From contig OZ252287.1 in NCBI GenBank assembly GCA_965250085.1, forward strand, positions 128,001-192,000: DNA of 64,000 nt, given 5' to 3'. The position numbers and the translations under genes were made by a program. How positions within the stretch are numbered: the first letter of the stretch is position 1; each line of letters begins with the position of its first letter. The notes under the pieces were generated by a model, which worked only from the letters and a program-made list of their open reading frames with translations, had not been told where the DNA came from and searched no databases. Below are positions 12,473 to 53,093 of the stretch, piece by piece. Source of the stretch: Candidatus Altimarinota bacterium. GTDB taxonomy: Bacteria; Patescibacteriota; Gracilibacteria; CAIRYL01.

Positions 12473-15400
12473 ATGCGAAAATTATTTTCTGTTCTCTGTT
12501 GTTTAATATTTCTTTCCGGACAAATCACTTTCCTTCCTCAAGTATCTGCTGAGGAAGTACTCGAATCATCGACTTCAATTTTTGCGGAAACAACAGACGA
12601 TCCCAATACAAAAGGAAAACCTGCTGGAAGTTCTGAAGAGCGTGATGTGATCCTTGATCCGGCACTATTAGGATCTCTGGAAAGCAAGGGGCAGGTCACA
12701 AAAGAAAAGGGTGAATCAGTGCTGATAGCTCCTTTGGAAGACGCTTTTCAAGAGAATACCGACACCTCTTCGCTTTCATCCGAATCCTTGTCGGCAAGTT
12801 CTTCCTCTTCTTCATCAGATCCGATGGATGCTGTTTCCAATGCTCCTTTGCCCGATGTAAATACTGATCCGCTCAAAAACATTGCAGGTGTGCAGGGAGA
12901 ATATAGCGTCAGTGAATTTACGGGAGATGTGCAATATTCGTACCCCCTCTTTATGCCTCCTGGCAGGAATGGTAGCTCTCCTTCTGTTACGCTCAGTTAC
13001 TCTGCTAGTAATAAAGAGGGCAATTCTGAACTGGGAACGGGATGGAATTTAGATCTTCCCAAAATCGAACGGTATTCTCGCACAGGAGTGGAAAATCTGT
13101 ATGCCAATAATAATTTTCTTTCTCCCTTTGCCGGTGGTAATGGTGAGCTTTCCATTGACTCTATTGATGCCAATGGACACGGGACGTATATCCCCAAAAT
13201 ACAAACAGGAGCGGTCTATCATGAATTCAAAGCAGACAACACTTGGGAGATTACTGATGCCGCAGGGGTGGTGTATCGATTTGGAACGGTATCAGATGCA
13301 CGAGAACAAAGTGATGATGGCGGTAGAATGTACACCTGGTATCTGACCGAAATAGAAGACACTAATGGCAACAAGATGATATATGAATATACCAAGAGCC
13401 AGGGGTCTGTATATCTGAAGCGTATACTCTATGGAAATGAAGCCCAGCCCTATGAAGTACGATTTGAACCCTATTTTTCCGGCACTCTTGAGCAGTTTGA
13501 TGTACTTCCGTCTTATTCTCGTCTTTTCCCAGTGGTGGAGCAAAAAGACTTATTGGACTCTGTAGAGGTTTTTGATCCGTTTTCAGGAGACAAGATCGTG
13601 TATGAACTTACTTATGATACTCAAGGAACCTTTGGCTCTTCCGAAAGCCTTTCGGGCACTACTGACTATCTTATCAGCATCCAGCAAAAAGGAGTGGCGG
13701 CTTCTGGTGTGGAAACCAGTTTGCCGCCGACCGAATTTGAATACGAGAGCTATGATGGGTCCCGATCATTTGACATTGTCTATCCGGATTTGAGTGATGA
13801 AAATGGCTATGACAACACGTATTTCGATGGAACGGAGGACAGCCCCGTTCCCATGTGGATTTTTGCTGATGAAACCGGAGATGGATGGGAAGACCTGGTC
13901 AGCAATGTAGTGCGATATAAGAAAATTAATGGCAGTTATCATCATTTGCCGTATGAACGCTTATTTGTTTCACAGGGAAATGGCGAATGGGTGGAAGATC
14001 CTGATTTTATGGCTTCGGAATCATACTGGGCATGGGAGTATAGGCCCCATGATATCCGGGATTATTTTCCACCCGGATACAGAGACAATAACGGAGATGT
14101 GACCGATCATCTCTGTATTCGGAAATATCATGGAAATCTGGGTCAAAAAGATGGTTTGAGTTGCTATAACGGCGAGCATGGGAATGAGATGAAAGTGTAC
14201 CCAAGAGATGAAGACTTCCAGTTTTTGGAACTCAACGCAGATGGGCATCCGGATGGATTTAAGTATGACCATAAACAAAATTATCACAACAACACCGATA
14301 ATTCCCTGTATAGAAATACCGGAACGGCGTTTGAACCGGAAACAAGTGCTCAGTGGAATATTCCGGATGATATCTTTTATGATGAAGGCAGTACACTGTT
14401 TGGAGATATCAATGGAGACGGACTGGATGATATGGTGCACTGGTTTCAGAAAGTGGATGAATCTTCCGTTCTGGTGGAAGAAACCAAGAGAGCCTACCTC
14501 AACACCGGAGAAGGTTGGCAAGATATCACTGCAGATATTTCACTGCCTGTTCCTATTCGCCATCGCAAATGTCAGAACGGAGTCAGTACCTGTGAAGTGA
14601 TTTCTGTGAAAAAAACCTTTACCTTTCTCGATGCCAACAGAGATGGACTGGTGGATCTCTTTCATCAAGGGAAAGTGCACCTGAATAATGGATACGGCTG
14701 GGAAAGCACTGTTTCGGAGCTGTACAACAGTTCATATGACTTTGATCCCAGTTTTCCCACGCTGAGCAGCTTTACAGATCTCAACAAAGACGGTGCTTTT
14801 GAACGCAAAAAGCCGGTTGGAAAAACATTTGCCAACAATAATGAGATCGTAGATCTTCCCGTGCTCACAAATGTTACAAGCCCTCAAGGAGGATTTGCCG
14901 AATTTGAATACACTCCTGCCTCGAGTTACACCAATGCCGATGGCAGTGCGGCGAATATTGAGCTCCCTATACCTCGTCTGACGTTATCTAAGCTTACAAC
15001 CGATGACGGAATGGGAAATACAAGTGAAACCAATTATGAATATGCCGGTGGAAAGATGTATCGCAATCATGTTTCTGAGCAAGAGCTTTTGGGATTTCAT
15101 ATGGTCACCAAAGCATTGCCGGATAATTCAAAAATTATTACAGAATATGAGCAAGGGAGTGCCTCACAAAACTTTGCTGGGAAAGGGTCTCTTACAAATC
15201 AGAAAATATACACTTCTTCTGGAGATCTTTTGCAGGAAACACAGAATTTTTATGACATTGAACCCCGCGGAACCAATAGTTACGAATCCCTCCTGGAAAC
15301 AAGTATCAATCTGACATATTCAGAACACAATCCTTCAAATTATAAAGCCACAGCCTCAGAATACACCTATGACCAGTATGGAAATATCATTCAGGCCATT

Positions 15401-18400
15401 GACTATGGAGAGGTGAATGTAGTGGACACAGCAGGCAACTTCACCGATATTGGCTCCGATACTCTCACCAGCAATATTGAATATGCAGAGAATGCGGCAG
15501 ATCATATTCTCTCTCTTCCTCAGAGACAGGAACTCCTGGATAATTCCGGAACGGTTATTGGTGAAAGCAAAATCTATTATGACAATCTGCCACTGGGTCA
15601 AGTGAGCATCGGCAATCGCACCAAGACGGAAACACTCGCTTGTACTGGTCAGGCATGCCTGACCCCTACGGTGACAACTCTTACAGAGTACAACTCCTAC
15701 GGTCTGCCGACAAAGGTGACCAATCCTCGAGGGTATGACACCAATATCACGTATGATTCTCAGAATCTCTTCCCAGAGACAATTACGAATGCCAAATTAC
15801 AAATTACAAATTACGAATACGATTATCTGTTTGGAATACCCGTGGAAGTGACCGATCCAAATGGAGCGAAGTCAATTACCGTGCTGGATTCTCTCGGACG
15901 AGTCACAGAAATCAAAGTCACTGATCCGAATAATACTGATACAGAAATCATCGCGAGCACCATTAACTACGACACTACATCAGTACCGAATAGTGTCACG
16001 ACGACGACATACACCCACACTCCTCCCCTCTTTCGCAAAGAGGGGCTGGGGGAGATTTCTGTAGAGGGAGTTATGTATCTCGATGGATTTGGAAGACTTA
16101 TTCAATCGCGGACTGAAGCAGAAGGGAGTGCACAGTATACAGTGCACAGTATACAGTATGATGATCGGGGGAATATGGACAAACAAACTCTTCCTGTCTT
16201 CCAGAGTGGAATCTCATATACAGCTTCATCAGGATCTGAAGTAGGGAGTACGTATACGTATGATGCTCTGAGCAGAGTGCTGAGTGAAATAACTCCAGTG
16301 GGAACGACTTCTACTGCGTATGATCAGTGGTCACAAACGGTGACTGATGCCAATGGACATCCAAAGGACTTTACTTCTGACGCTCGAGGAAATCTGACTG
16401 AGGTGACCGAACACTTGGACGGAACTCCATATGACACGAACTATGCCTATGATCAGCTGAACAATCTCATCACAATCACAGATGCCAAGGGAAACATCAG
16501 AAACTTCACATATGACCTCCTGGGAAGACGTATCAGCATGGAAGATTTGCATACAGCAAACGATGCAACTTTCGGACTGTGGACTTTTGACTATGATGAC
16601 AACAGCAATCTCATCACTCAAACCGATCCAAAGGATCAGGAAATTTCTTACACCTATGATGAACTCGATAGAGTCCTCACCGAATCAGCAAAAATTCCTC
16701 CGTCTTCCGTCTTCGAACTGCACACTTCATACGCCTATGACACCGGAACGTATGGCATTGGACGCCTTTCATCAATAGTGAGTCCCGCTGTGACCAAGAA
16801 CTACACGTATGACATCCTCGGTAGAGTTATAAATGAACAAAAAAAGATTCTCGTACGGATTGATGGCAATCAATCCCTACAAACTTTCGACTCGTACTTC
16901 ACGTACGATCTCGCCGGCAATCAGCTCAGTATCACCTATCCTGGTTCGACAGGCTCACCACAAGCGAACATGCTCGTGGAATACACCTACAACAACGCTG
17001 GCCTTCTGGAAGCTGTACAAAAGGATGGAGCAGACATCGTCACTAATCTCGACTACATCCCTGTGGGGCTGGTCGAGAAAATTGATTACGCCAATGGCGT
17101 CAGCACCACCAATACGTATGACATTGGCCAAATCTATCGATTGACCAATAAATCCACCCTCCTTCACCAAGGTTCCGGCGGGCAGGCCGTACATCAGGAT
17201 ATCAGCTACACTTTTGATCCTGTGGGAAACATCACCCAGATCACAGACACCTCAGAGACCAACGCTGCCAAGACTTCTACATTTACCTATGATGATCTGG
17301 ACAGGCTTCTTTCTGCAACCGTGAGCAATGCGGCCAATGGCGATAATTATGCGCGCAACTATACCTATGATATCATTGGCAACATGCTGAGCCATTCAGA
17401 AGCCGGCAGTTATGAATACGCTGGAGGCGACTCTGGGACCAGCTCAGGAGCAAACTCCAATCCTCATGCCGTGACCGATGTGGCAGGAGTGGCGTATAGC
17501 TATGATGATAATGGTAATCTCATATCAAATAACACTTGGACCCATGGTTGGGATTATAAAGATCGCTTGCTGAGCTCTACAGATGGAACAGCTACGGTGA
17601 ACTATACCTATGATGAAGGGGGAGCGAGGGTGAAGAAGGTGAATGCGACCAGTGGCAAAGAGACGGTGTATGTGAATGAATTTGTGGATATCGAGGATTC
17701 TGCTGTGAAGAATCATATCTACGCCGGAGGGATGAAAGTGGCCACCTATTCTGCTGGAATTGCCAGTGGCAGTGGGAGTACGTGTACGGTAGATCTGAGT
17801 ACATGTACAGGGGAAGGAGCAAGATCGCCGTTATGGGAGAATGAGACTTCTCTCAATGGAGCTATAACTGAAGCGCATTATTTAGAAACATATGGACAGA
17901 TGTGTGTGGTGATCTTGTCTGGTGGAGAACAGGTGGCATGGCCTGTAGCTCAGGAAGCAAGCTGGTGGTGTGGTGAAGTGAGTATCCCTGTCTATGAGAG
18001 TGATATAGTCTATCACCATGAAGATCACTTAACGGGATCAAATGTAGACACCGATGACACAGGAAACCTCATTCAGCTATTAGACTACTACCCCTATGGA
18101 GATACTAGACTCGATGAACAGTCATCATCGTACGCAAATGACTATAAGTTTACAGGGAAGGAGAAGGATGAGGATACAGGACTCTATTATTATGAGGCGA
18201 GGTATTATGATAGTGGGATTGGGAGGTTTATATCACTCGATCCCTGGTTTGGAGATATTTATGACCCGCAGAGTTTGAATAAGTATGCGTATGTGAGGAA
18301 TAATCCATTGAAGTATGTGGATGAGACGGGGGAGGTCTATCAAAAAATAGTAGACTGGGCTCTAAAGTGGGCTGCAAAAAAAACACTTCGAAAGGAAATT

Positions 18401-18826
18401 GAAGAAATGATCTTTCCTGAGCAAACGGCAGGAGAACCTGATCCTCGTATTCCTGAATCATCTTATTCTCAGGTTCAAACTATATTTAACTCAAATGGAT
18501 TACAGGCAAACTCCGTTCGAAGATTTTATGATGATGTTATTATCTCAGGGATCAGTGAAAACAATCAAAATTTCACAGTAAATGTTGGTCCAGAATCTAT
18601 AAGCTTATATATATCCTTCGAAGACTCTACAATTAGCTCTGCGGTAACCATTGACCTTACGAGCTCATTCCCTACAAGTGTAATGGAGAAAATTGATGAT
18701 GAGGGATCAGTTGCTAGACTGGAATTAGTTGTTCGTAGTAAACTTGAGAATCATTATAAAAGTATTAAGCCAAAAGAAGATGGAAAAGATGAAGAAAGTG
18801 AAACTGACAATGATTCAGGGGATTAA
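12473..18826 (+). CDS. Large RHS/YD-repeat polymorphic toxin (SpvB-like N-terminus, FG-GAP repeats, RHS core, variable CT)
   Basis: Signal peptide; PPGRNG..P.VTLSY, LGTGWNLDLP; DINGDGLDD; YD repeats; FTGKEKDEDTGLYYYEARYYD; NNPLKYVDETG. Confidence 0.93.
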   Translation: MRKLFSVLCCLIFLSGQITFLPQVSAEEVLESSTSIFAETTDDPNTKGKPAGSSEERDVILDPALLGSLESKGQVTKEKGESVLIAPLEDAFQENTDTSSLSSESLSASSSSSSSDPMDAVSNAPLPDVNTDPLKNIAGVQGEYSVSEFTGDVQYSYPLFMPPGRNGSSPSVTLSYSASNKEGNSELGTGWNLDLPKIERYSRTGVENLYANNNFLSPFAGGNGELSIDSIDANGHGTYIPKIQTGAVYHEFKADNTWEITDAAGVVYRFGTVSDAREQSDDGGRMYTWYLTEIEDTNGNKMIYEYTKSQGSVYLKRILYGNEAQPYEVRFEPYFSGTLEQFDVLPSYSRLFPVVEQKDLLDSVEVFDPFSGDKIVYELTYDTQGTFGSSESLSGTTDYLISIQQKGVAASGVETSLPPTEFEYESYDGSRSFDIVYPDLSDENGYDNTYFDGTEDSPVPMWIFADETGDGWEDLVSNVVRYKKINGSYHHLPYERLFVSQGNGEWVEDPDFMASESYWAWEYRPHDIRDYFPPGYRDNNGDVTDHLCIRKYHGNLGQKDGLSCYNGEHGNEMKVYPRDEDFQFLELNADGHPDGFKYDHKQNYHNNTDNSLYRNTGTAFEPETSAQWNIPDDIFYDEGSTLFGDINGDGLDDMVHWFQKVDESSVLVEETKRAYLNTGEGWQDITADISLPVPIRHRKCQNGVSTCEVISVKKTFTFLDANRDGLVDLFHQGKVHLNNGYGWESTVSELYNSSYDFDPSFPTLSSFTDLNKDGAFERKKPVGKTFANNNEIVDLPVLTNVTSPQGGFAEFEYTPASSYTNADGSAANIELPIPRLTLSKLTTDDGMGNTSETNYEYAGGKMYRNHVSEQELLGFHMVTKALPDNSKIITEYEQGSASQNFAGKGSLTNQKIYTSSGDLLQETQNFYDIEPRGTNSYESLLETSINLTYSEHNPSNYKATASEYTYDQYGNIIQAIDYGEVNVVDTAGNFTDIGSDTLTSNIEYAENAADHILSLPQRQELLDNSGTVIGESKIYYDNLPLGQVSIGNRTKTETLACTGQACLTPTVTTLTEYNSYGLPTKVTNPRGYDTNITYDSQNLFPETITNAKLQITNYEYDYLFGIPVEVTDPNGAKSITVLDSLGRVTEIKVTDPNNTDTEIIASTINYDTTSVPNSVTTTTYTHTPPLFRKEGLGEISVEGVMYLDGFGRLIQSRTEAEGSAQYTVHSIQYDDRGNMDKQTLPVFQSGISYTASSGSEVGSTYTYDALSRVLSEITPVGTTSTAYDQWSQTVTDANGHPKDFTSDARGNLTEVTEHLDGTPYDTNYAYDQLNNLITITDAKGNIRNFTYDLLGRRISMEDLHTANDATFGLWTFDYDDNSNLITQTDPKDQEISYTYDELDRVLTESAKIPPSSVFELHTSYAYDTGTYGIGRLSSIVSPAVTKNYTYDILGRVINEQKKILVRIDGNQSLQTFDSYFTYDLAGNQLSITYPGSTGSPQANMLVEYTYNNAGLLEAVQKDGADIVTNLDYIPVGLVEKIDYANGVSTTNTYDIGQIYRLTNKSTLLHQGSGGQAVHQDISYTFDPVGNITQITDTSETNAAKTSTFTYDDLDRLLSATVSNAANGDNYARNYTYDIIGNMLSHSEAGSYEYAGGDSGTSSGANSNPHAVTDVAGVAYSYDDNGNLISNNTWTHGWDYKDRLLSSTDGTATVNYTYDEGGARVKKVNATSGKETVYVNEFVDIEDSAVKNHIYAGGMKVATYSAGIASGSGSTCTVDLSTCTGEGARSPLWENETSLNGAITEAHYLETYGQMCVVILSGGEQVAWPVAQEASWWCGEVSIPVYESDIVYHHEDHLTGSNVDTDDTGNLIQLLDYYPYGDTRLDEQSSSYANDYKFTGKEKDEDTGLYYYEARYYDSGIGRFISLDPWFGDIYDPQSLNKYAYVRNNPLKYVDETGEVYQKIVDWALKWAAKKTLRKEIEEMIFPEQTAGEPDPRIPESSYSQVQTIFNSNGLQANSVRRFYDDVIISGISENNQNFTVNVGPESISLYISFEDSTISSAVTIDLTSSFPTSVMEKIDDEGSVARLELVVRSKLENHYKSIKPKEDGKDEESETDNDSGD
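15642..15669 (-). repeat. GTAG-type REP-like palindrome in frame within the RHS gene
   Basis: Perfect 18-bp GGTCAGGCATGCCTGACC preceded by GTAG on the minus strand. Confidence 0.75.
16021..16058 (+). repeat. GC-rich hairpin mini-element in frame within the RHS gene
   Basis: CCCCTCTTT-CGC-AAAGAGGGG plus GGGGGAGATTT tail; similar element at 26946-26982. Confidence 0.7.
16942..16964 (+). repeat. TTCGACAGGCTCA-core mini-element in frame (related copies at 19978-19994 and 21791-21810)
   Basis: Shared core TTCGRCMRGCTCA at three non-homologous positions. Confidence 0.75.
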
Positions 18827-19492: not shown

Positions 19493-19858
19493 GTATCAAA
19501 TAGTAGTGATGCGTGCAATAATGTTTCCCCTGCCCCCCCCGCTTCCGCGGGAGCAAGTGTCTCGCAGAGCACCTGGTCCAAAGCAATTCATAAGCTACCA
19601 ATTGGACTGACATACTTCAAAAACATCTCTTTCTCATCTTTCTGGTGCCGTCATCGTTGGCTGAAGTCTTCCACCACGGCGGACAGGTTTGGACTCGAAC
19701 GCTAACAAATAATTTAACAATGCTGCCAAAGCAAAAGCAATAAAAAGAGTGAGTAAGTACAAAGTATGGCAAGATGGAAATAGACCAAAGGGATAAAAGG
19801 GGTCGGCCACCTTTAATCGGAGGAAAGATATATCACCATCATAAATCAGGTTTATATA

Positions 19859-20929
19859 GTGCCCATGCCAAAAAACAATATATCCAAAACCTCATCAACT
19901 TTTATTGCTCATTCTCAACGTGGTAACACATTGATACACGATGTACTGGAGTATCACCATGAGGATCACCTCACAGATTCGGCAAGCTCACTGCGGGCGG
20001 ATTTTAATGTAGATACGGATGATATGGGCAATGTTCTTGTGGTACTGGACTACTATCCCTATGGGGACGTGAGGTTGGATGAACAGAGTAGTTCATATGA
20101 GAATGACTATAAGTTTACGGGGAAAGAGAAGGATGAGGATACGGGTTTGTATTATTATGAAGCGAGGTATTATGATTCTGGGATTGGGAGGTTTACTGCT
20201 ATTGACCCGATGGCAAAACTTTCTCCAGAAACTTTCCTGAAGGATCCTCAGCAATTAAATTCGTACACTTATGTCCGTAATAATCCCTTGGGTGCAATTG
20301 ATCCTGATGGGCTTCTCACTATCTTTATTCATGGAACTGTTTTGCCAGGAAAAAATACAAATCCATTTTCTGAGGGTTATATGAAACAAGTTGCTACGGA
20401 TCTTGGAGATAATAGCTATACAAATTTCTCTTGGTCAGGAACGAGTAGTGAAAAGGCAAGAACAGAGGCCGCAAGAAACCTGGAGTCTTTGGTTAGAAAC
20501 TACGAATTTTCTGAGGGGGAACAGTTAAATATCGTGGGGCATAGCCACGGTGGGAATGTTTCCATTGAAGCCATAAACACGAATAGAATGCTTCGCAATG
20601 TAGACAACCTTGTTCTTCTGGGTGCCCCAAATAGAGATGATTATACTTTAGATAATGATAATGTTGGGGCTGTGTACAATGTCTATTCATTGGAAGACAA
20701 TATACAAAATAACTGGGGCGGAGAATTTACTACTAATCCCGCAGAGTCTACCTATGCTAATCATCCGTGGAGAGCTGGCGAAAACGTGAAGAATCTTCGC
20801 TTTAGAGACATGAATAAGGGTCCAATTGAAACTCACTCATGGCTAAGAACACAGGAAGCTTGGAGTTATATTCGTAAATTTATAGAAGACAAAGATGAGG
20901 AAAGTTCGGATGACAAAGATGCAAGTTAA
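19859..20929 (+). CDS. Orphan RHS core fragment plus alpha/beta-hydrolase (lipase-like) CT
   Basis: RHS core homology from ~19945 (YHHEDHLT), NNPLGAIDPDG, then IFIHG, GHSHGG nucleophile elbow, late His (ETHS). Confidence 0.85.
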   Translation: MPMPKNNISKTSSTFIAHSQRGNTLIHDVLEYHHEDHLTDSASSLRADFNVDTDDMGNVLVVLDYYPYGDVRLDEQSSSYENDYKFTGKEKDEDTGLYYYEARYYDSGIGRFTAIDPMAKLSPETFLKDPQQLNSYTYVRNNPLGAIDPDGLLTIFIHGTVLPGKNTNPFSEGYMKQVATDLGDNSYTNFSWSGTSSEKARTEAARNLESLVRNYEFSEGEQLNIVGHSHGGNVSIEAINTNRMLRNVDNLVLLGAPNRDDYTLDNDNVGAVYNVYSLEDNIQNNWGGEFTTNPAESTYANHPWRAGENVKNLRFRDMNKGPIETHSWLRTQEAWSYIRKFIEDKDEESSDDKDAS

Positions 20930-21379: not shown

Positions 21380-21455
21380 ATGAAAGTAGTCACCTCTTCA
21401 GCCGGCATCGCTAGTGGCAGTGGCAGTACGTGCACAGTTGATTTGAGTGGATGTA
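21380..21455 (+). pseudogene. Short RHS remnant
   Basis: Matches ~17732-17806 (ATGAAAGT..GC.AGTGGCAGTGG.AGTACGTG). Confidence 0.7.
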
Positions 21456-21524
21456 GCAGTCAGGACATGTCCCCGCTAGCGCGCGTTTGTAACGCGTGCA
21501 ATAAATAAACACTTTCAAGAATCC

Positions 21525-22490
21525 ATGTCAAAAAACTATACCTCTAACCCCCATGCAGTAACAGAAATAGCTGGTGTACCCTACTCCTACGATCCCAACG
21601 GCAATCTCACCTCCAATGATACCTGGAATCACTCTTGGGATTATAAAGACCGACTGCTGAGCAGTGCAGATGGAAGTACAACGGTGAACTATGAATATGA
21701 TGAGGGAGGCAATAGAGTGAAGAAGGTGAATACCTCAAGTGGGAAAGAAACCGTGTATGTGAATGAATACGTAGATATTGAGGATTCTGACCCTTCGACC
21801 GGCTCAGGACCTGCGGCAGTGAAAAATCATATCTATGCTGGAGGAATGAAGATAGCAACGTATTCTGAGGGTATTGCCAGTGGCACAGGGAGCACCTGTA
21901 CAGTTGACCTCAGTGGATGTGCTGGAGAAGGAGACACATCTCCACTCTGGGAGAATGAAACTTCACTCTCTGGAGTTTTGCAGGAAGAAGCTCATTATCT
22001 AGAAATCTCTGGAGATATGTGTGTGGTGTCTCTGGAGGGAGGAGAACAGGTTGCATGGCCAACAGAATCTGAACCCTCTTGGTGGTGTGGAGAAGTGAGT
22101 ATTCCTGTCTTTGATAGTGATATTGTGTATCACCATGAAGATCACTTAACGGGATCAAATGTAGACACCGATGACACAGGAAACCTCATTCAGCTCTTAG
22201 ACTATTATCCCTATGGAGATGTGAGGCTGGATGAACAGTCTTCTTCTTATGAAAATGACTATAAGTTTACGGGCAAGGAAAAGGATGAGGATACGGGGCT
22301 GTACTACTATGAAGCACGGTATTATGATAGTAGTATTGGGAGGTTTGTGAGTTTGGATCCTTTGGTAAAAGTGTCTCCAGAGGTTTTCTTAGTTGATCCA
22401 CAGCAACTTAACGGTTACTCATATGTTTCAAACAATCCCTTAAATGCTATCGATCCTGATGGACTTCTTACTATTTTTATTCATGGGTGA
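21525..22490 (+). pseudogene. Second orphan RHS cassette, CT truncated after IFIHG
   Basis: High similarity to the main RHS 17455-18330; DPDGLLTIFIHG shared with orphan 1, then stop. Confidence 0.85.
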
Positions 22491-26945: not shown

Positions 26946-26982
26946 ATCCCCCTCCAACTCCCCCTAAAAGGGGGAGGGGAAT
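26946..26982. repeat. GC-rich hairpin mini-element or bidirectional terminator
   Basis: CTCCCCC-TAAAA-GGGGGAG between convergent dnaA and ribH. Confidence 0.6.
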
Positions 26983-52930: not shown

Positions 52931-53093
52931 ATTCTTTGGATGAAATTTAGTCGTAGCAACGTAGCAGTACTACGCTATTACAGTACGGAATAATATGAAA
53001 TTATTCAAATTGAATGCCTTTTGAGCTTACCGATATTTATCCTTTGTACAATATATATGATGTAATGCTATGCCGGAAGATACCGAATAAAAA

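What the first reader, a model, noticed from the sequence alone, without database searches (positions are those of the whole stretch)
15642..17186. At least four families of palindromic mini-elements inserted in frame in the RHS gene
Seen: a GTAG-REP-like palindrome (15642-15669, encoding CTGQACLTPT), a CCCCTCTTT/AAAGAGGGG hairpin (16021-16058, PPLFRKEGLGEI), a TTCGACAGGCTCA element (16942-16964, GSTGSPQ) and CCCTCCTTCACCAAGGTTCCGGCGGGCAGG (17157-17186, LLHQGSGGQA). All are GC-rich, keep the frame and fall between YD strands. Intergenic look-alikes occur at 26946-26982, 19677-19687 and 52953-52981. I did not notice them in the housekeeping ORFs. Known analogy: Rickettsia palindromic elements and REP/RAYT repeats. 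Inference: mobile ~25-40 bp DNA elements that add peptide loops to a surface toxin, a possible diversification route distinct from DGRs.
Basis: partly seen in the sequence, partly recalled or inferred. Interest (0 to 1): 0.8.

Follow-up and report, generated by a model that had tools for sequence, protein, structure and literature searches.

The report
Triplex-type DNA repeat inside RHS gene
Only one of the four flagged stretches is a real repeat: a small three-armed DNA motif of a known but poorly understood kind (a hairpin plus a mirror-image tail that could fold into a triple helix), which sits in frame in this toxin-shell gene and in about a dozen ordinary genes of the same tiny genome.

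Summary
One of the four "elements" is a dispersed repeat.

**The real repeat.** Window 16025-16057 is a complete class II intrastrand-triplex motif of the BoxC / PIT / TM kind (Holder et al. 2015, PMC4666352). It has a pyrimidine arm CCCCTCTTT, loop, purine arm AAAGAGGGG, loop, and a mirror arm GGGGAGATT.
- The genome (1.37 Mb) holds 94 such units, against 0 in each of three shuffles. Sixteen are exact copies of this type.
- Only this RHS gene and its same-genome paralogue (57.5% identical by tblastn) carry the encoded peptide LFRKEGLGE. The other 49 aligned homologues lack it.
- The 33-nt core is the longest exact DNA match between the two paralogues.

**The other three.** Sites 15642-69, 16942-64 and 17157-86 are unique in the genome. 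They lie in lineage-variable loops. Two of them do not fold better than shuffled sequence.

**Transposases.** Two RAYT transposase genes exist, but the one whose flanks I read is flanked by a different hairpin family and no motif unit lies near either.

**Earlier notes.** This scan already noted the same class in frame in genes of at least 12 other genomes. I found no paper describing in-frame copies. Triplex folding and the spreading mechanism are inferred, not shown.

The parts
12473..18826 (+). RHS / Tc-BC-like shell gene (2117 aa, P0001) that hosts the motif
   Evidence: ORF; translation; precomputed Pfam PF05593 (RHS repeat) and PF03534 (SpvB). The paralogue lies at genome 929797-937167 (-), 57.5% identical by tblastn.
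16025..16033 (+). E2 pyrimidine (Y) arm CCCCTCTTT
   Evidence: Sequence; 9-bp stem; class II unit.
16037..16045 (+). E2 purine (R) arm AAAGAGGGG. Loop 1 is CGC at 16034-16036.
   Evidence: Loop CGC occurs only in the two RHS copies among 16 type-B units.
16049..16057 (+). E2 mirror (reverse-Hoogsteen, H) arm GGGGAGATT. Loop 2 is CTG at 16046-16048. It mirrors the R arm, with T opposite A at the end.
   Evidence: All 9 positions fit the G.GC, A.AT and T.AT rules given in the introduction of PMC4666352.
26947..26976 (-).
15647..15664 (.). E1: unique perfect 18-bp palindrome GGTCAGGCATGCCTGACC in a variable loop. Not a repeat family.
   Evidence: In 31 genomes searched with up to 2 mismatches it matched only itself and one 2-mismatch site in one other genome. 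The loop is 3-5 residues longer than in most homologues.
16942..16964 (+). E3: lineage-specific 6-residue insertion (GSTGSPQ region). Single copy, no fold.
   Evidence: Absent from the paralogue and the 49 other homologues; unique; z +0.26; lowest pLDDT block of the model, 64.
17157..17186 (+). E4: variable beta-turn (LLHQGSGGQA). Single copy, no fold.
19677..19687 (+). I2: member of a separate small family, (T)CCRCC-nnn-GGCGGACAGG. Not a triplex motif.
   Evidence: The 10-mer GGCGGACAGG occurs 14 times in the genome; 19/19 match at genome 495875.

Best explanation
Window 16025-16057 is an in-frame copy of a short dispersed repeat of the class II 'intrastrand triplex motif' kind (BoxC / PIT / TM elements). 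It consists of a pyrimidine arm, a complementary purine arm, and a third arm that mirrors the purine arm. On one DNA strand this could form a hairpin, with the third arm folding back antiparallel onto the purine strand through G.GC, A.AT and T.AT triads.

The genome is seeded with such units, mostly between genes and often as head-to-head pairs of different arm types. Copies that fall in frame, without stops, into tolerant loops of proteins persist and are translated as a by-product. The peptide is PLFxKEGxGEI-like when the G strand is the sense strand and NPPxxPLxKGG-like when the C strand is.

The RHS copy arose once. That was either before the two RHS paralogues split or by later conversion between them. 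It has been kept unchanged at the DNA level.

E1, E3 and E4 are ordinary lineage-specific loop sequence, not mobile elements.

Shown: repeat membership, three-arm architecture, mirror covariation, insertion relative to homologues, in-frame copies in other genes, and DNA-level conservation. Inferred: triplex folding, translation of the peptide, and the (unknown) way the units spread.
For: Architecture and abundance:
- A scan for Y(8)-loop-R(8)-loop-H(8) with at most 1 mismatch per arm finds 94 units, against 0, 0, 0 in three 1-kb-block shuffles.
- The exact type-B pattern occurs 16 times in this genome. The reversed-pattern control gives 0.

Mirror covariation:
- Among perfect hairpins whose purine arm has one off-centre A in its G run, the downstream arm carries the interruption at the mirrored position in 32 strand views and at the direct-repeat position in 1.
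- 81 views show neither. Most of these are the opposite-strand view of the same hairpins.
- Five arm types show at least one mirrored case. Uninterrupted G runs were tallied only by length: G5 followed by G5 in 21 views, G6 by G6 in 2 (examples).
- A opposite A may be A or T, for example AAGGGAGG followed by GGTGGGTT.

Arms versus loops: the arms are invariant while loop 1 differs in nearly every copy, with 13 variants in 16 type-B units.

Insertion in RHS:
- In an alignment of 51 homologues, only P0001 and the paralogue carry LFRKEGLGE. The other 49 have loops 5-10 residues shorter there in the aligned block.
- blastn-short hits to intergenic copies reach 88-91% over 34-36 nt, E 8e-7 to 8e-4.

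Conservation:
- Codons 1186-1195 are identical at all 30 nt. Third-position identity between the paralogues is 0.46 overall, so ten identical third positions have a chance of about 5e-4 at a pre-specified site.
- The 33-nt tract is the longest exact match between the two genes. The next longest is 27 nt, in the YYYEARYYD core.
- Loops CGC and CTG are shared only by these two copies.

Other in-frame copies:
- Gnd has about 22 extra residues at the motif pair, aligned against PDB 2iz0.
- Lpd has 11 extra residues, aligned against PDB 3ic9.
- Pfam domains span or flank the motif in NMNAT, M24 peptidase, PriA, ValS, RsmF and a Ddl-Ddl fusion.

Location: by my crude ORF caller, 45 of 62 loci lie in the roughly 10% of the genome that is non-coding.

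Known kind: Holder et al. 2015. I read the outline, the introduction, sections 15, 16 and 18, and keyword passages.

Assemblies: Logan contigs of 4 runs from one sample break at 16026-16058. The 33-nt node has 2-3 times the flanking depth, as expected for a repeat.
Against: - Triplex formation is not tested. ViennaRNA sees only the hairpin, and E2's hairpin is only moderately better than shuffles (z -2.03; 8 of 200 shuffles fold as well).
- The copies are related by descent. The mirror covariation therefore rests on about 5-6 independent arm types, not on 32 events.
- A control that asked for a direct copy of the purine arm at the same 1-mismatch tolerance still found 47 loci, because near-symmetric G-rich arms pass both tests. 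Only arms with an off-centre interruption discriminate.
- The insertion boundaries in RHS cannot be fixed. The closest non-self homologue is only 55% identical, and the loop varies in length across the family.
- The perfect conservation between paralogues could reflect a short gene-conversion tract rather than selection.
- My gene calls are a crude longest-ORF caller. Four of the 17 'inside ORF' loci lie in doubtful ORFs or in ORFs that may be fused by read-through.
- Translation of the peptide is assumed.
Confidence: 0.85

Rival explanations
1. All four stretches are copies of four different mobile palindromic mini-elements that diversify the toxin.
For: All four are GC-rich, in frame, and in loops that are longer than in most homologues. 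E1 is a perfect 18-bp palindrome, and perfect palindromes of 18 bp or more are enriched genome-wide (47, against 3-9 in shuffles). E3 is a clean 6-residue insertion absent from all 50 other sequences.
Against: E1, E3 and E4 have no second copy in the genome by k-mers or by blastn-short. E1 is not repeated in 30 related genomes. E3 and E4 are not palindromic. The E2 site is the most conserved tract between the paralogues, not a diversifying one.
Confidence: 0.04
2. The triplex-type units are REP-like sequences mobilised by the genome's RAYT (REP-associated tyrosine transposase), which cuts and pastes single-stranded hairpins. The RHS copy is one such transposition.
For: Two RAYT genes score above the NCBIfam cut-off (95.6 and 82 bits, against 80). 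One lies about 1 kb downstream of the RHS paralogue, next to a truncated duplicate of itself. Hairpin-based ssDNA transposition would suit a structured ssDNA element.
Against: The RAYT at genome 1238737-1239237 has 3 of the 7 copies of a different hairpin family (GGTTCARRTT-loop-AAYYTGAACC) around it: two upstream and one abutting its 3' end, the classical REP-RAYT arrangement. No triplex unit lies within 8 kb of it. The nearest units to the other RAYT are about 5-7 kb away. I did not read the immediate flanks of that second RAYT. Holder et al. report no transposase near TM_ECO sites in E. coli (discussion passage). Loop 1 is nearly random among copies, unlike recent transposon copies.
Confidence: 0.07
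3. The similarity of E2 to the intergenic repeat is coincidental or convergent. PLFRKEGLGEI would then be native RHS sequence conserved for protein reasons.
For: AlphaFold2 models the segment confidently (pLDDT blocks 95-96, with a short helical turn). Both paralogues keep the peptide.
Against: A 34-nt, three-armed match to at least 10 intergenic copies, each with E <= 8e-4. All ten third codon positions are identical between paralogues whose third positions otherwise agree 46% of the time, which protein-level selection does not explain. The peptide is absent from the other 49 aligned homologues.
Confidence: 0.03
4. The units are RNA-level signals such as intrinsic terminators or mRNA stabilisers. 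The in-ORF copies are accidents of the same signal.
For: Intergenic loci are about twice as enriched between convergent genes (14 of 45, against 138 of 842 spacers; Fisher p = 0.023). Head-to-head pairs give each strand a hairpin followed by a G arm and Ts.
Against: The T run is 10-12 nt from the stem, not adjacent to it. At least 12 units sit inside translated genes in either orientation. According to the introduction of PMC4666352, PIT elements showed no promoter or terminator activity in E. coli, and purine-motif triplexes do not form in RNA. A terminator also has no need of a mirror arm.
Confidence: 0.08

Closest known systems
BoxC / PIT (potential intrastrand triplex) elements = TM_ECO, class II purine-motif intrastrand triplex motifs (Holder et al. 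2015, PMC4666352; Hoyne and Maher 2000 as cited there)
   Same: - Y arm, loop of 3-6, R arm, loop of 3, mirror G arm; 9-nt arms.
- The second loop is often TTA.
- Arms conserved, loops variable.
- Many copies per genome, with patchy presence among relatives.
- Frequent inverted pairs of two different types.
- No transposase next to them.
   Different: - The arm sequences differ: CCCCTCTTT/AAAGAGGGG/GGGGAGATT and sister types, not CCCTCNCCC/GGGNGAGGG.
- The host is a 1.37-Mb, 40% GC genome whose closest RHS homologues are labelled Peregrinibacteria or Gracilibacteria.
- About a fifth of the loci lie inside ORFs and in frame, whereas TM_ECO is reported as always intergenic in E. coli MG1655.
   Same: A dispersed palindromic repeat found in frame inside protein-coding genes, housekeeping genes included, adding peptide segments in tolerated positions.
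   Different: RPEs are recalled as about 100-150 bp and as simple palindromes. The units here are 30-35 nt (pairs about 70-100 nt) and carry a third, mirror arm. There is no sequence relation.
REP elements with RAYT transposases
   Same: Short GC-rich extragenic hairpins, single or in inverted pairs. RAYT genes are present in this genome.
   Different: Three copies of another hairpin family surround the RAYT whose flanks I read. REPs have no mirror arm.
Earlier notes of this scan: BoxC-like triplex-motif repeats in frame in rlmN, metG, miaA, alaS, rarA, argS, uvrABC and wzt of other CPR genomes
   Same: The same class of unit, the same in-frame tolerance in loops, and in one note the same observation that the repeat changed less than the surrounding gene.
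   Different: Here the host gene is an RHS toxin shell and its paralogue, which gives an internal paralogue test of DNA-level conservation. This genome also shows GA-type and GT-type third arms side by side.

Membership tests
Class II intrastrand triplex motif (ITxF definition, Holder et al. 2015) | Order 5'-pyrimidine arm, purine arm, reverse-Hoogsteen arm-3' on one strand | tested here: met
   E2: CCCCTCTTT / AAAGAGGGG / GGGGAGATT. Definition read.
Class II intrastrand triplex motif (ITxF definition, Holder et al. 2015) | Stem of 6-15 nt (at most 1 mismatch if longer than 7) and loops of 1-6 nt | tested here: met
   9/9/9 arms with no mismatch; loops of 3 and 3 nt. The paralogue copy has an 8-bp Watson-Crick stem. 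Criteria read.
Class II intrastrand triplex motif (ITxF definition, Holder et al. 2015) | Third arm obeys G.GC, A.AT and T.AT triads antiparallel to the purine arm (mirror symmetry) | tested here: met
   9 of 9 positions in E2. Genome-wide, 32 mirrored against 1 direct among arms with an off-centre interruption, across 5 arm types.
Class II intrastrand triplex motif (ITxF definition, Holder et al. 2015) | More copies than chance | tested here: met
   94 units against 0, 0, 0 in shuffles. 16 exact type-B copies against 0 for the reversed pattern.
Class II intrastrand triplex motif (ITxF definition, Holder et al. 2015) | Actually folds into a triplex (CD, NMR or footprinting, as done for TM_ECO) | not testable with these tools
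   Only the hairpin can be computed.
TM_ECO / BoxC proper | Consensus CCCTCNCCC-N3-6-GGGNGAGGG-N3-GGGNGAGGG | tested here: not met
   The arms differ. Same class, different sequence family.
TM_ECO / BoxC proper | Strictly intergenic location | tested here: not met
   E2 and at least 11 other loci lie in frame inside genes. The statement for E. coli was read.
REP / RAYT system | The repeat flanks its RAYT gene and shares a conserved 5' tetranucleotide plus hairpin | tested here: not met
   Three GGTTCARRTT hairpins surround the RAYT whose flanks I read. No triplex unit lies within 8 kb of it, and the nearest units to the other RAYT are about 5-7 kb away.
Rickettsia palindromic elements | A repeat of about 100-150 bp with sequence similarity to RPE families (recalled definition) | not tested
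   The size (30-35 nt) and the three-arm form differ on inspection. No RPE sequence was compared.

The most novel reading that the evidence does not exclude
The three arms are under selection as DNA even inside translated genes, so the triplex-type fold has a cellular role in these tiny genomes. It might be a programmed pause, nick or recombination site on single-stranded DNA. In the RHS pair it might mark a conserved exchange point between paralogues. On this reading the peptide loops in a dozen proteins are the price of keeping that signal, and insertion is not neutral junk.
Probability: 0.15. Interest if true: 0.75.

Novelty: new variant of a known kind. Interest (0 to 1): 0.45.

Why it matters
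[quoted passage not shown] In E. coli they are reported only between genes.

In this genome they sit in frame inside a toxin shell and inside enzymes such as 6-phosphogluconate dehydrogenase and valyl-tRNA synthetase. The RHS paralogue pair gives a natural test: the motif is the best-conserved DNA in 6 kb of otherwise diverged sequence. This points to constraint or homogenisation acting on the DNA itself.

For annotation, it explains odd GC-rich 'PLFxKEGxGEI' and 'NPPSPPLQKGG' peptide insertions in proteins of uncultivated bacteria. It also corrects the idea that RHS carries a special diversification mechanism here.

Tried and rejected
- **E1 in relatives.** The palindrome pattern, with up to 2 mismatches, matched only itself and one 2-mismatch site among 31 genomes.
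- **E4 as a member of the GGCGGACAGG family.** It matches only with one mismatch and lacks the upstream CCGCC arm. By my own arithmetic (no call), about 0.4 such matches are expected by chance in the gene. Rejected.
- **E3 against the same family.** 9 of 12 positions match, in a different reading frame. Rejected.
The G strand lies on the leading strand 42 times and on the lagging strand 42 times. The origin and terminus taken from cumulative GC skew are uncertain, and genes show almost no strand bias (615 against 587).
- **First swapped-downstream control**. It was weak because copies of one type match each other, so I replaced it with the interruption-position test.
- **Direct-repeat control at 1 mismatch.** It gave 47 loci and does not discriminate for near-symmetric arms.
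- **Sequencing runs.** No RNA holder was listed. The four holders are Logan contigs from one sample of one study and may be the window's own source. Contigs showed no form with the motif deleted, which proves nothing.
- **Inside or outside of the RHS shell.** The model output gives no coordinates, so I could not tell which face the insert lies on.
- **Literature.** I made three searches: mirror repeat / triplex / intergenic / bacterial genomes / hairpin; intrastrand triplex / BoxC / PIT element; Candidate Phyla Radiation / in-frame / palindromic / repeat / insertion / housekeeping. None of the listed titles or abstracts describes in-frame triplex-motif insertions. Subscription journals and the supplements of PMC4666352 were not seen.
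Full report
**Observation.**

The window's RHS ORF runs from 12473 to 18826 (+) and encodes 2117 aa. They are more GC-rich than the gene: 0.57-0.70 against 0.44.

Folded as single-stranded DNA, E1 is a perfect 18-bp palindrome (15647-15664; z -2.98). E2 has a 9-bp stem with a 3-nt loop (z -2.03). E3 and E4 fold no better than shuffles. So only two of the four are palindromic.

**Which are repeats.**

The window lies in a single 1,368,807-bp contig of 40% GC. k-mer counts and blastn-short find no second copy of E1, E3, E4 or the look-alike I3.

E2 has a 33/33 match at genome 933675-933707 and at least 10 further matches of 88-91% over 34-36 nt. Listing the copies showed a unit CCCCTCTTT-nnn-AAAGAGGGG-nnn-GGGGAGATT. 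Sister units share the plan but have other arms:
- TCCCCCTT..AAGGGGGA..AGGGGGTT
- CCTCCCTT..AAGGGAGG..GGTGGGTT
- CTCCCTTT..AAAGGGAG..GAGGGATT
- CTCCCCCT..AGGGGGAG..GAGGGGG

They often sit as head-to-head pairs of two different types.

**The third arm mirrors the purine arm.**

In every type the third arm is the purine arm read backwards, with A or T opposite A. These are the rules of an antiparallel purine-motif triplex.

A scan for Y8-loop-R8-loop-H8 with at most 1 mismatch per arm finds 94 units, against 0 in each of three shuffled genomes.

Among hairpins whose purine arm has one off-centre A, the downstream arm has the interruption at the mirrored place in 32 strand views, at the direct place in 1, and at neither in 81. 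Most of the 81 are the opposite-strand view of the same hairpins. Because copies share ancestry, this amounts to about five or six independent arm types.

**It is a known kind.**

A literature search led to Holder et al. 2015 (PMC4666352). I read the outline, the introduction, sections 15, 16 and 18, and keyword passages.

The paper defines class II intrastrand triplex motifs (Y, R, reverse-Hoogsteen). It describes BoxC / PIT / TM_ECO: 9-nt arms, a second loop of TTA or CCG, conserved arms with variable loops, inverted pairs of two types, patchy distribution, and no transposase nearby. In E. coli MG1655 the location is 'always intergenic'.

E2 meets the class definition but not the TM_ECO consensus.

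**Is E2 an insertion?**

I aligned residues 1000-1650 of P0001 with the paralogue and with 49 of the top 60 hits from a 5.8-billion-protein search. The other ten hits did not span the region and were dropped.
- Only P0001 and the same-genome paralogue (genome 929797-937167, minus strand, 2456 aa, 57.5% identical by tblastn) carry LFRKEGLGE.
- The other 49 have loops 5-10 residues shorter there in the aligned block.
- E3 is a clean 6-residue insertion unique to P0001.
- E1 and E4 sit in loops of variable length.

In an AlphaFold2 model of residues 1030-1600 (49-row alignment, pLDDT 92.9) all four sites fall between strands. E3 has the lowest confidence block (64) and E2 is confident (95-96).

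**DNA-level conservation.**

Between the paralogues, third-codon positions agree 46% of the time. Codons 1186-1195 are identical at all 30 nt, while the flanking codons differ at many third positions.

The 33-nt tract is the longest exact match between the two genes. Their loops, CGC and CTG, occur in no other type-B copy: 2 of 16. The two copies therefore share one origin and have not drifted. Either the DNA is constrained or a short conversion tract renewed it.

Logan contigs of four runs from one sample break exactly at this 33-nt node. Its depth is 2-3 times that of the flanks.

**Not special to RHS.**

I used a crude ORF caller (1202 ORFs, 90% coding). By its calls, 45 of 62 motif loci are intergenic and 17 lie inside ORFs.

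Translations and Pfam show real genes around many of them.
- Pfam domains span the motif in Lpd, Gnd, NMNAT and an M24 peptidase.
- The motif lies between domains in PriA, ValS, RsmF and a Ddl-Ddl fusion, and after the domain in MurI.

Alignment to solved structures shows about 22 extra residues at the motif pair in Gnd (2iz0) and 11 in Lpd (3ic9).

Four loci lie in doubtful ORFs or in ORFs that may be fused by read-through: genome 91286, 234191, 807975 and 1071341.

**Relatives.**

Among 30 related genomes plus this one:
- type B occurs in this genome (16 copies) and in one genome of another family (7 copies);
- the G5 type occurs in 8 of the 31;
- the GT type occurs only here.

These are samples of their groups, and several of the genomes are incomplete.

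**Transposases.**

Two RAYT genes pass the NCBIfam cut-off. One lies just downstream of the RHS paralogue.

The other, at genome 1238737-1239237, has three of the seven copies of a different hairpin family (GGTTCARRTT..AAYYTGAACC) around it: two upstream and one abutting its 3' end. No triplex unit lies within 8 kb of it. I did not read the immediate flanks of the first RAYT. The nearest units to it are about 5-7 kb away.

**Other tests.**

I saw no replication-strand bias (42 against 42), but the origin is uncertain. Intergenic loci are enriched about twofold between convergent genes (p = 0.023).

**Earlier notes of this scan.**

After reaching the BoxC reading, I found that the scan holds 14 notes from at least 12 other genomes. 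They describe the same class in frame in housekeeping genes of CPR bacteria. So this is a further instance of something the scan has already seen, here in a toxin shell with a paralogue control.

Three literature searches found no paper on in-frame copies.

**Verdict.**

One real repeat of a known kind sits in an unusual (coding) place, and the other three are ordinary variable loops.

Triplex folding, translation of the peptide and the spreading mechanism remain inferred.

Noticed in passing
L009 (genome 1073470-1076841, +), residues 487-647: The valyl-tRNA synthetase ORF carries a whole histidine-phosphatase domain (PF00300, E 4e-30) inserted within the catalytic domain. It also has a triplex-motif insertion at residues 829-840 and a second, degenerate one further on.
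   Followed up: no
L002 (genome 1237342-1240521); hairpins at genome 1238062, 1238657, 1239240: A RAYT gene has three copies of a 7-copy hairpin family around it (ttgGTTCARRTT-tgc-AAYYTGAACc): two upstream and one abutting its 3' end, a classical REP-RAYT arrangement. Two copies in the genome carry a nested CCTCC-nnn-GGCGGA hairpin in their loop.
   Followed up: partly
L001 (genome 927032-930253): A second RAYT gene, with a truncated duplicate of its own 5' end next to it, lies about 1 kb downstream of the RHS paralogue. A 189-aa multi-pass membrane ORF lies between them.
   Followed up: no
window 19677-19687 and 13 other genome sites: A small family (T)CCRCC-loop-GGCGGACAGG, with loops from 3 to about 40 nt, often next to AATTACGAAT repeats. 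Where it falls in ORFs (ValS, and the N-terminus of the Ddl-like ORF) it encodes GGQA.
   Followed up: partly
window 19946-20311 and 21380-22463: Orphan RHS C-terminal fragments downstream of the main gene (67-77% identical to residues 1662-1953 or 1845-1953). This is the usual array of spare toxin tips. Four more lie beside the paralogue.
   Followed up: no
window 16130-16157: A perfect tandem duplication of a 14-nt unit (GCACAGTATACAGT, twice) inside the RHS ORF. It causes no length change relative to the paralogue. Short-read contigs also break there, and small variant unitigs (2-3 differences) occur.
   Followed up: no
genome-wide, e.g. 64076, 327705, 420132, 464865, 1016870: At least 10 perfect 18-bp palindromes of the form GRYWSAAAATTTTSWRYC, both intergenic and in ORFs. 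Perfect palindromes of 18 bp or more number 47, against 3-9 in shuffles.
   Followed up: no
L008 (genome 1071341-1072117) and L013 (genome 1305319-1307784): Two ORFs read through a triplex motif that joins separate modules: DUF559 endonuclease plus riboflavin kinase, and two D-Ala-D-Ala ligase copies. These may be gene fusions made, or faked, by a stop-free repeat.
   Followed up: no
L014 (genome 1325682-1327436): A Cys-rich protein with treble-clef zinc fingers at both ends (PF13451, PF23477) carries a motif pair in frame at residues 405-428.
   Followed up: no
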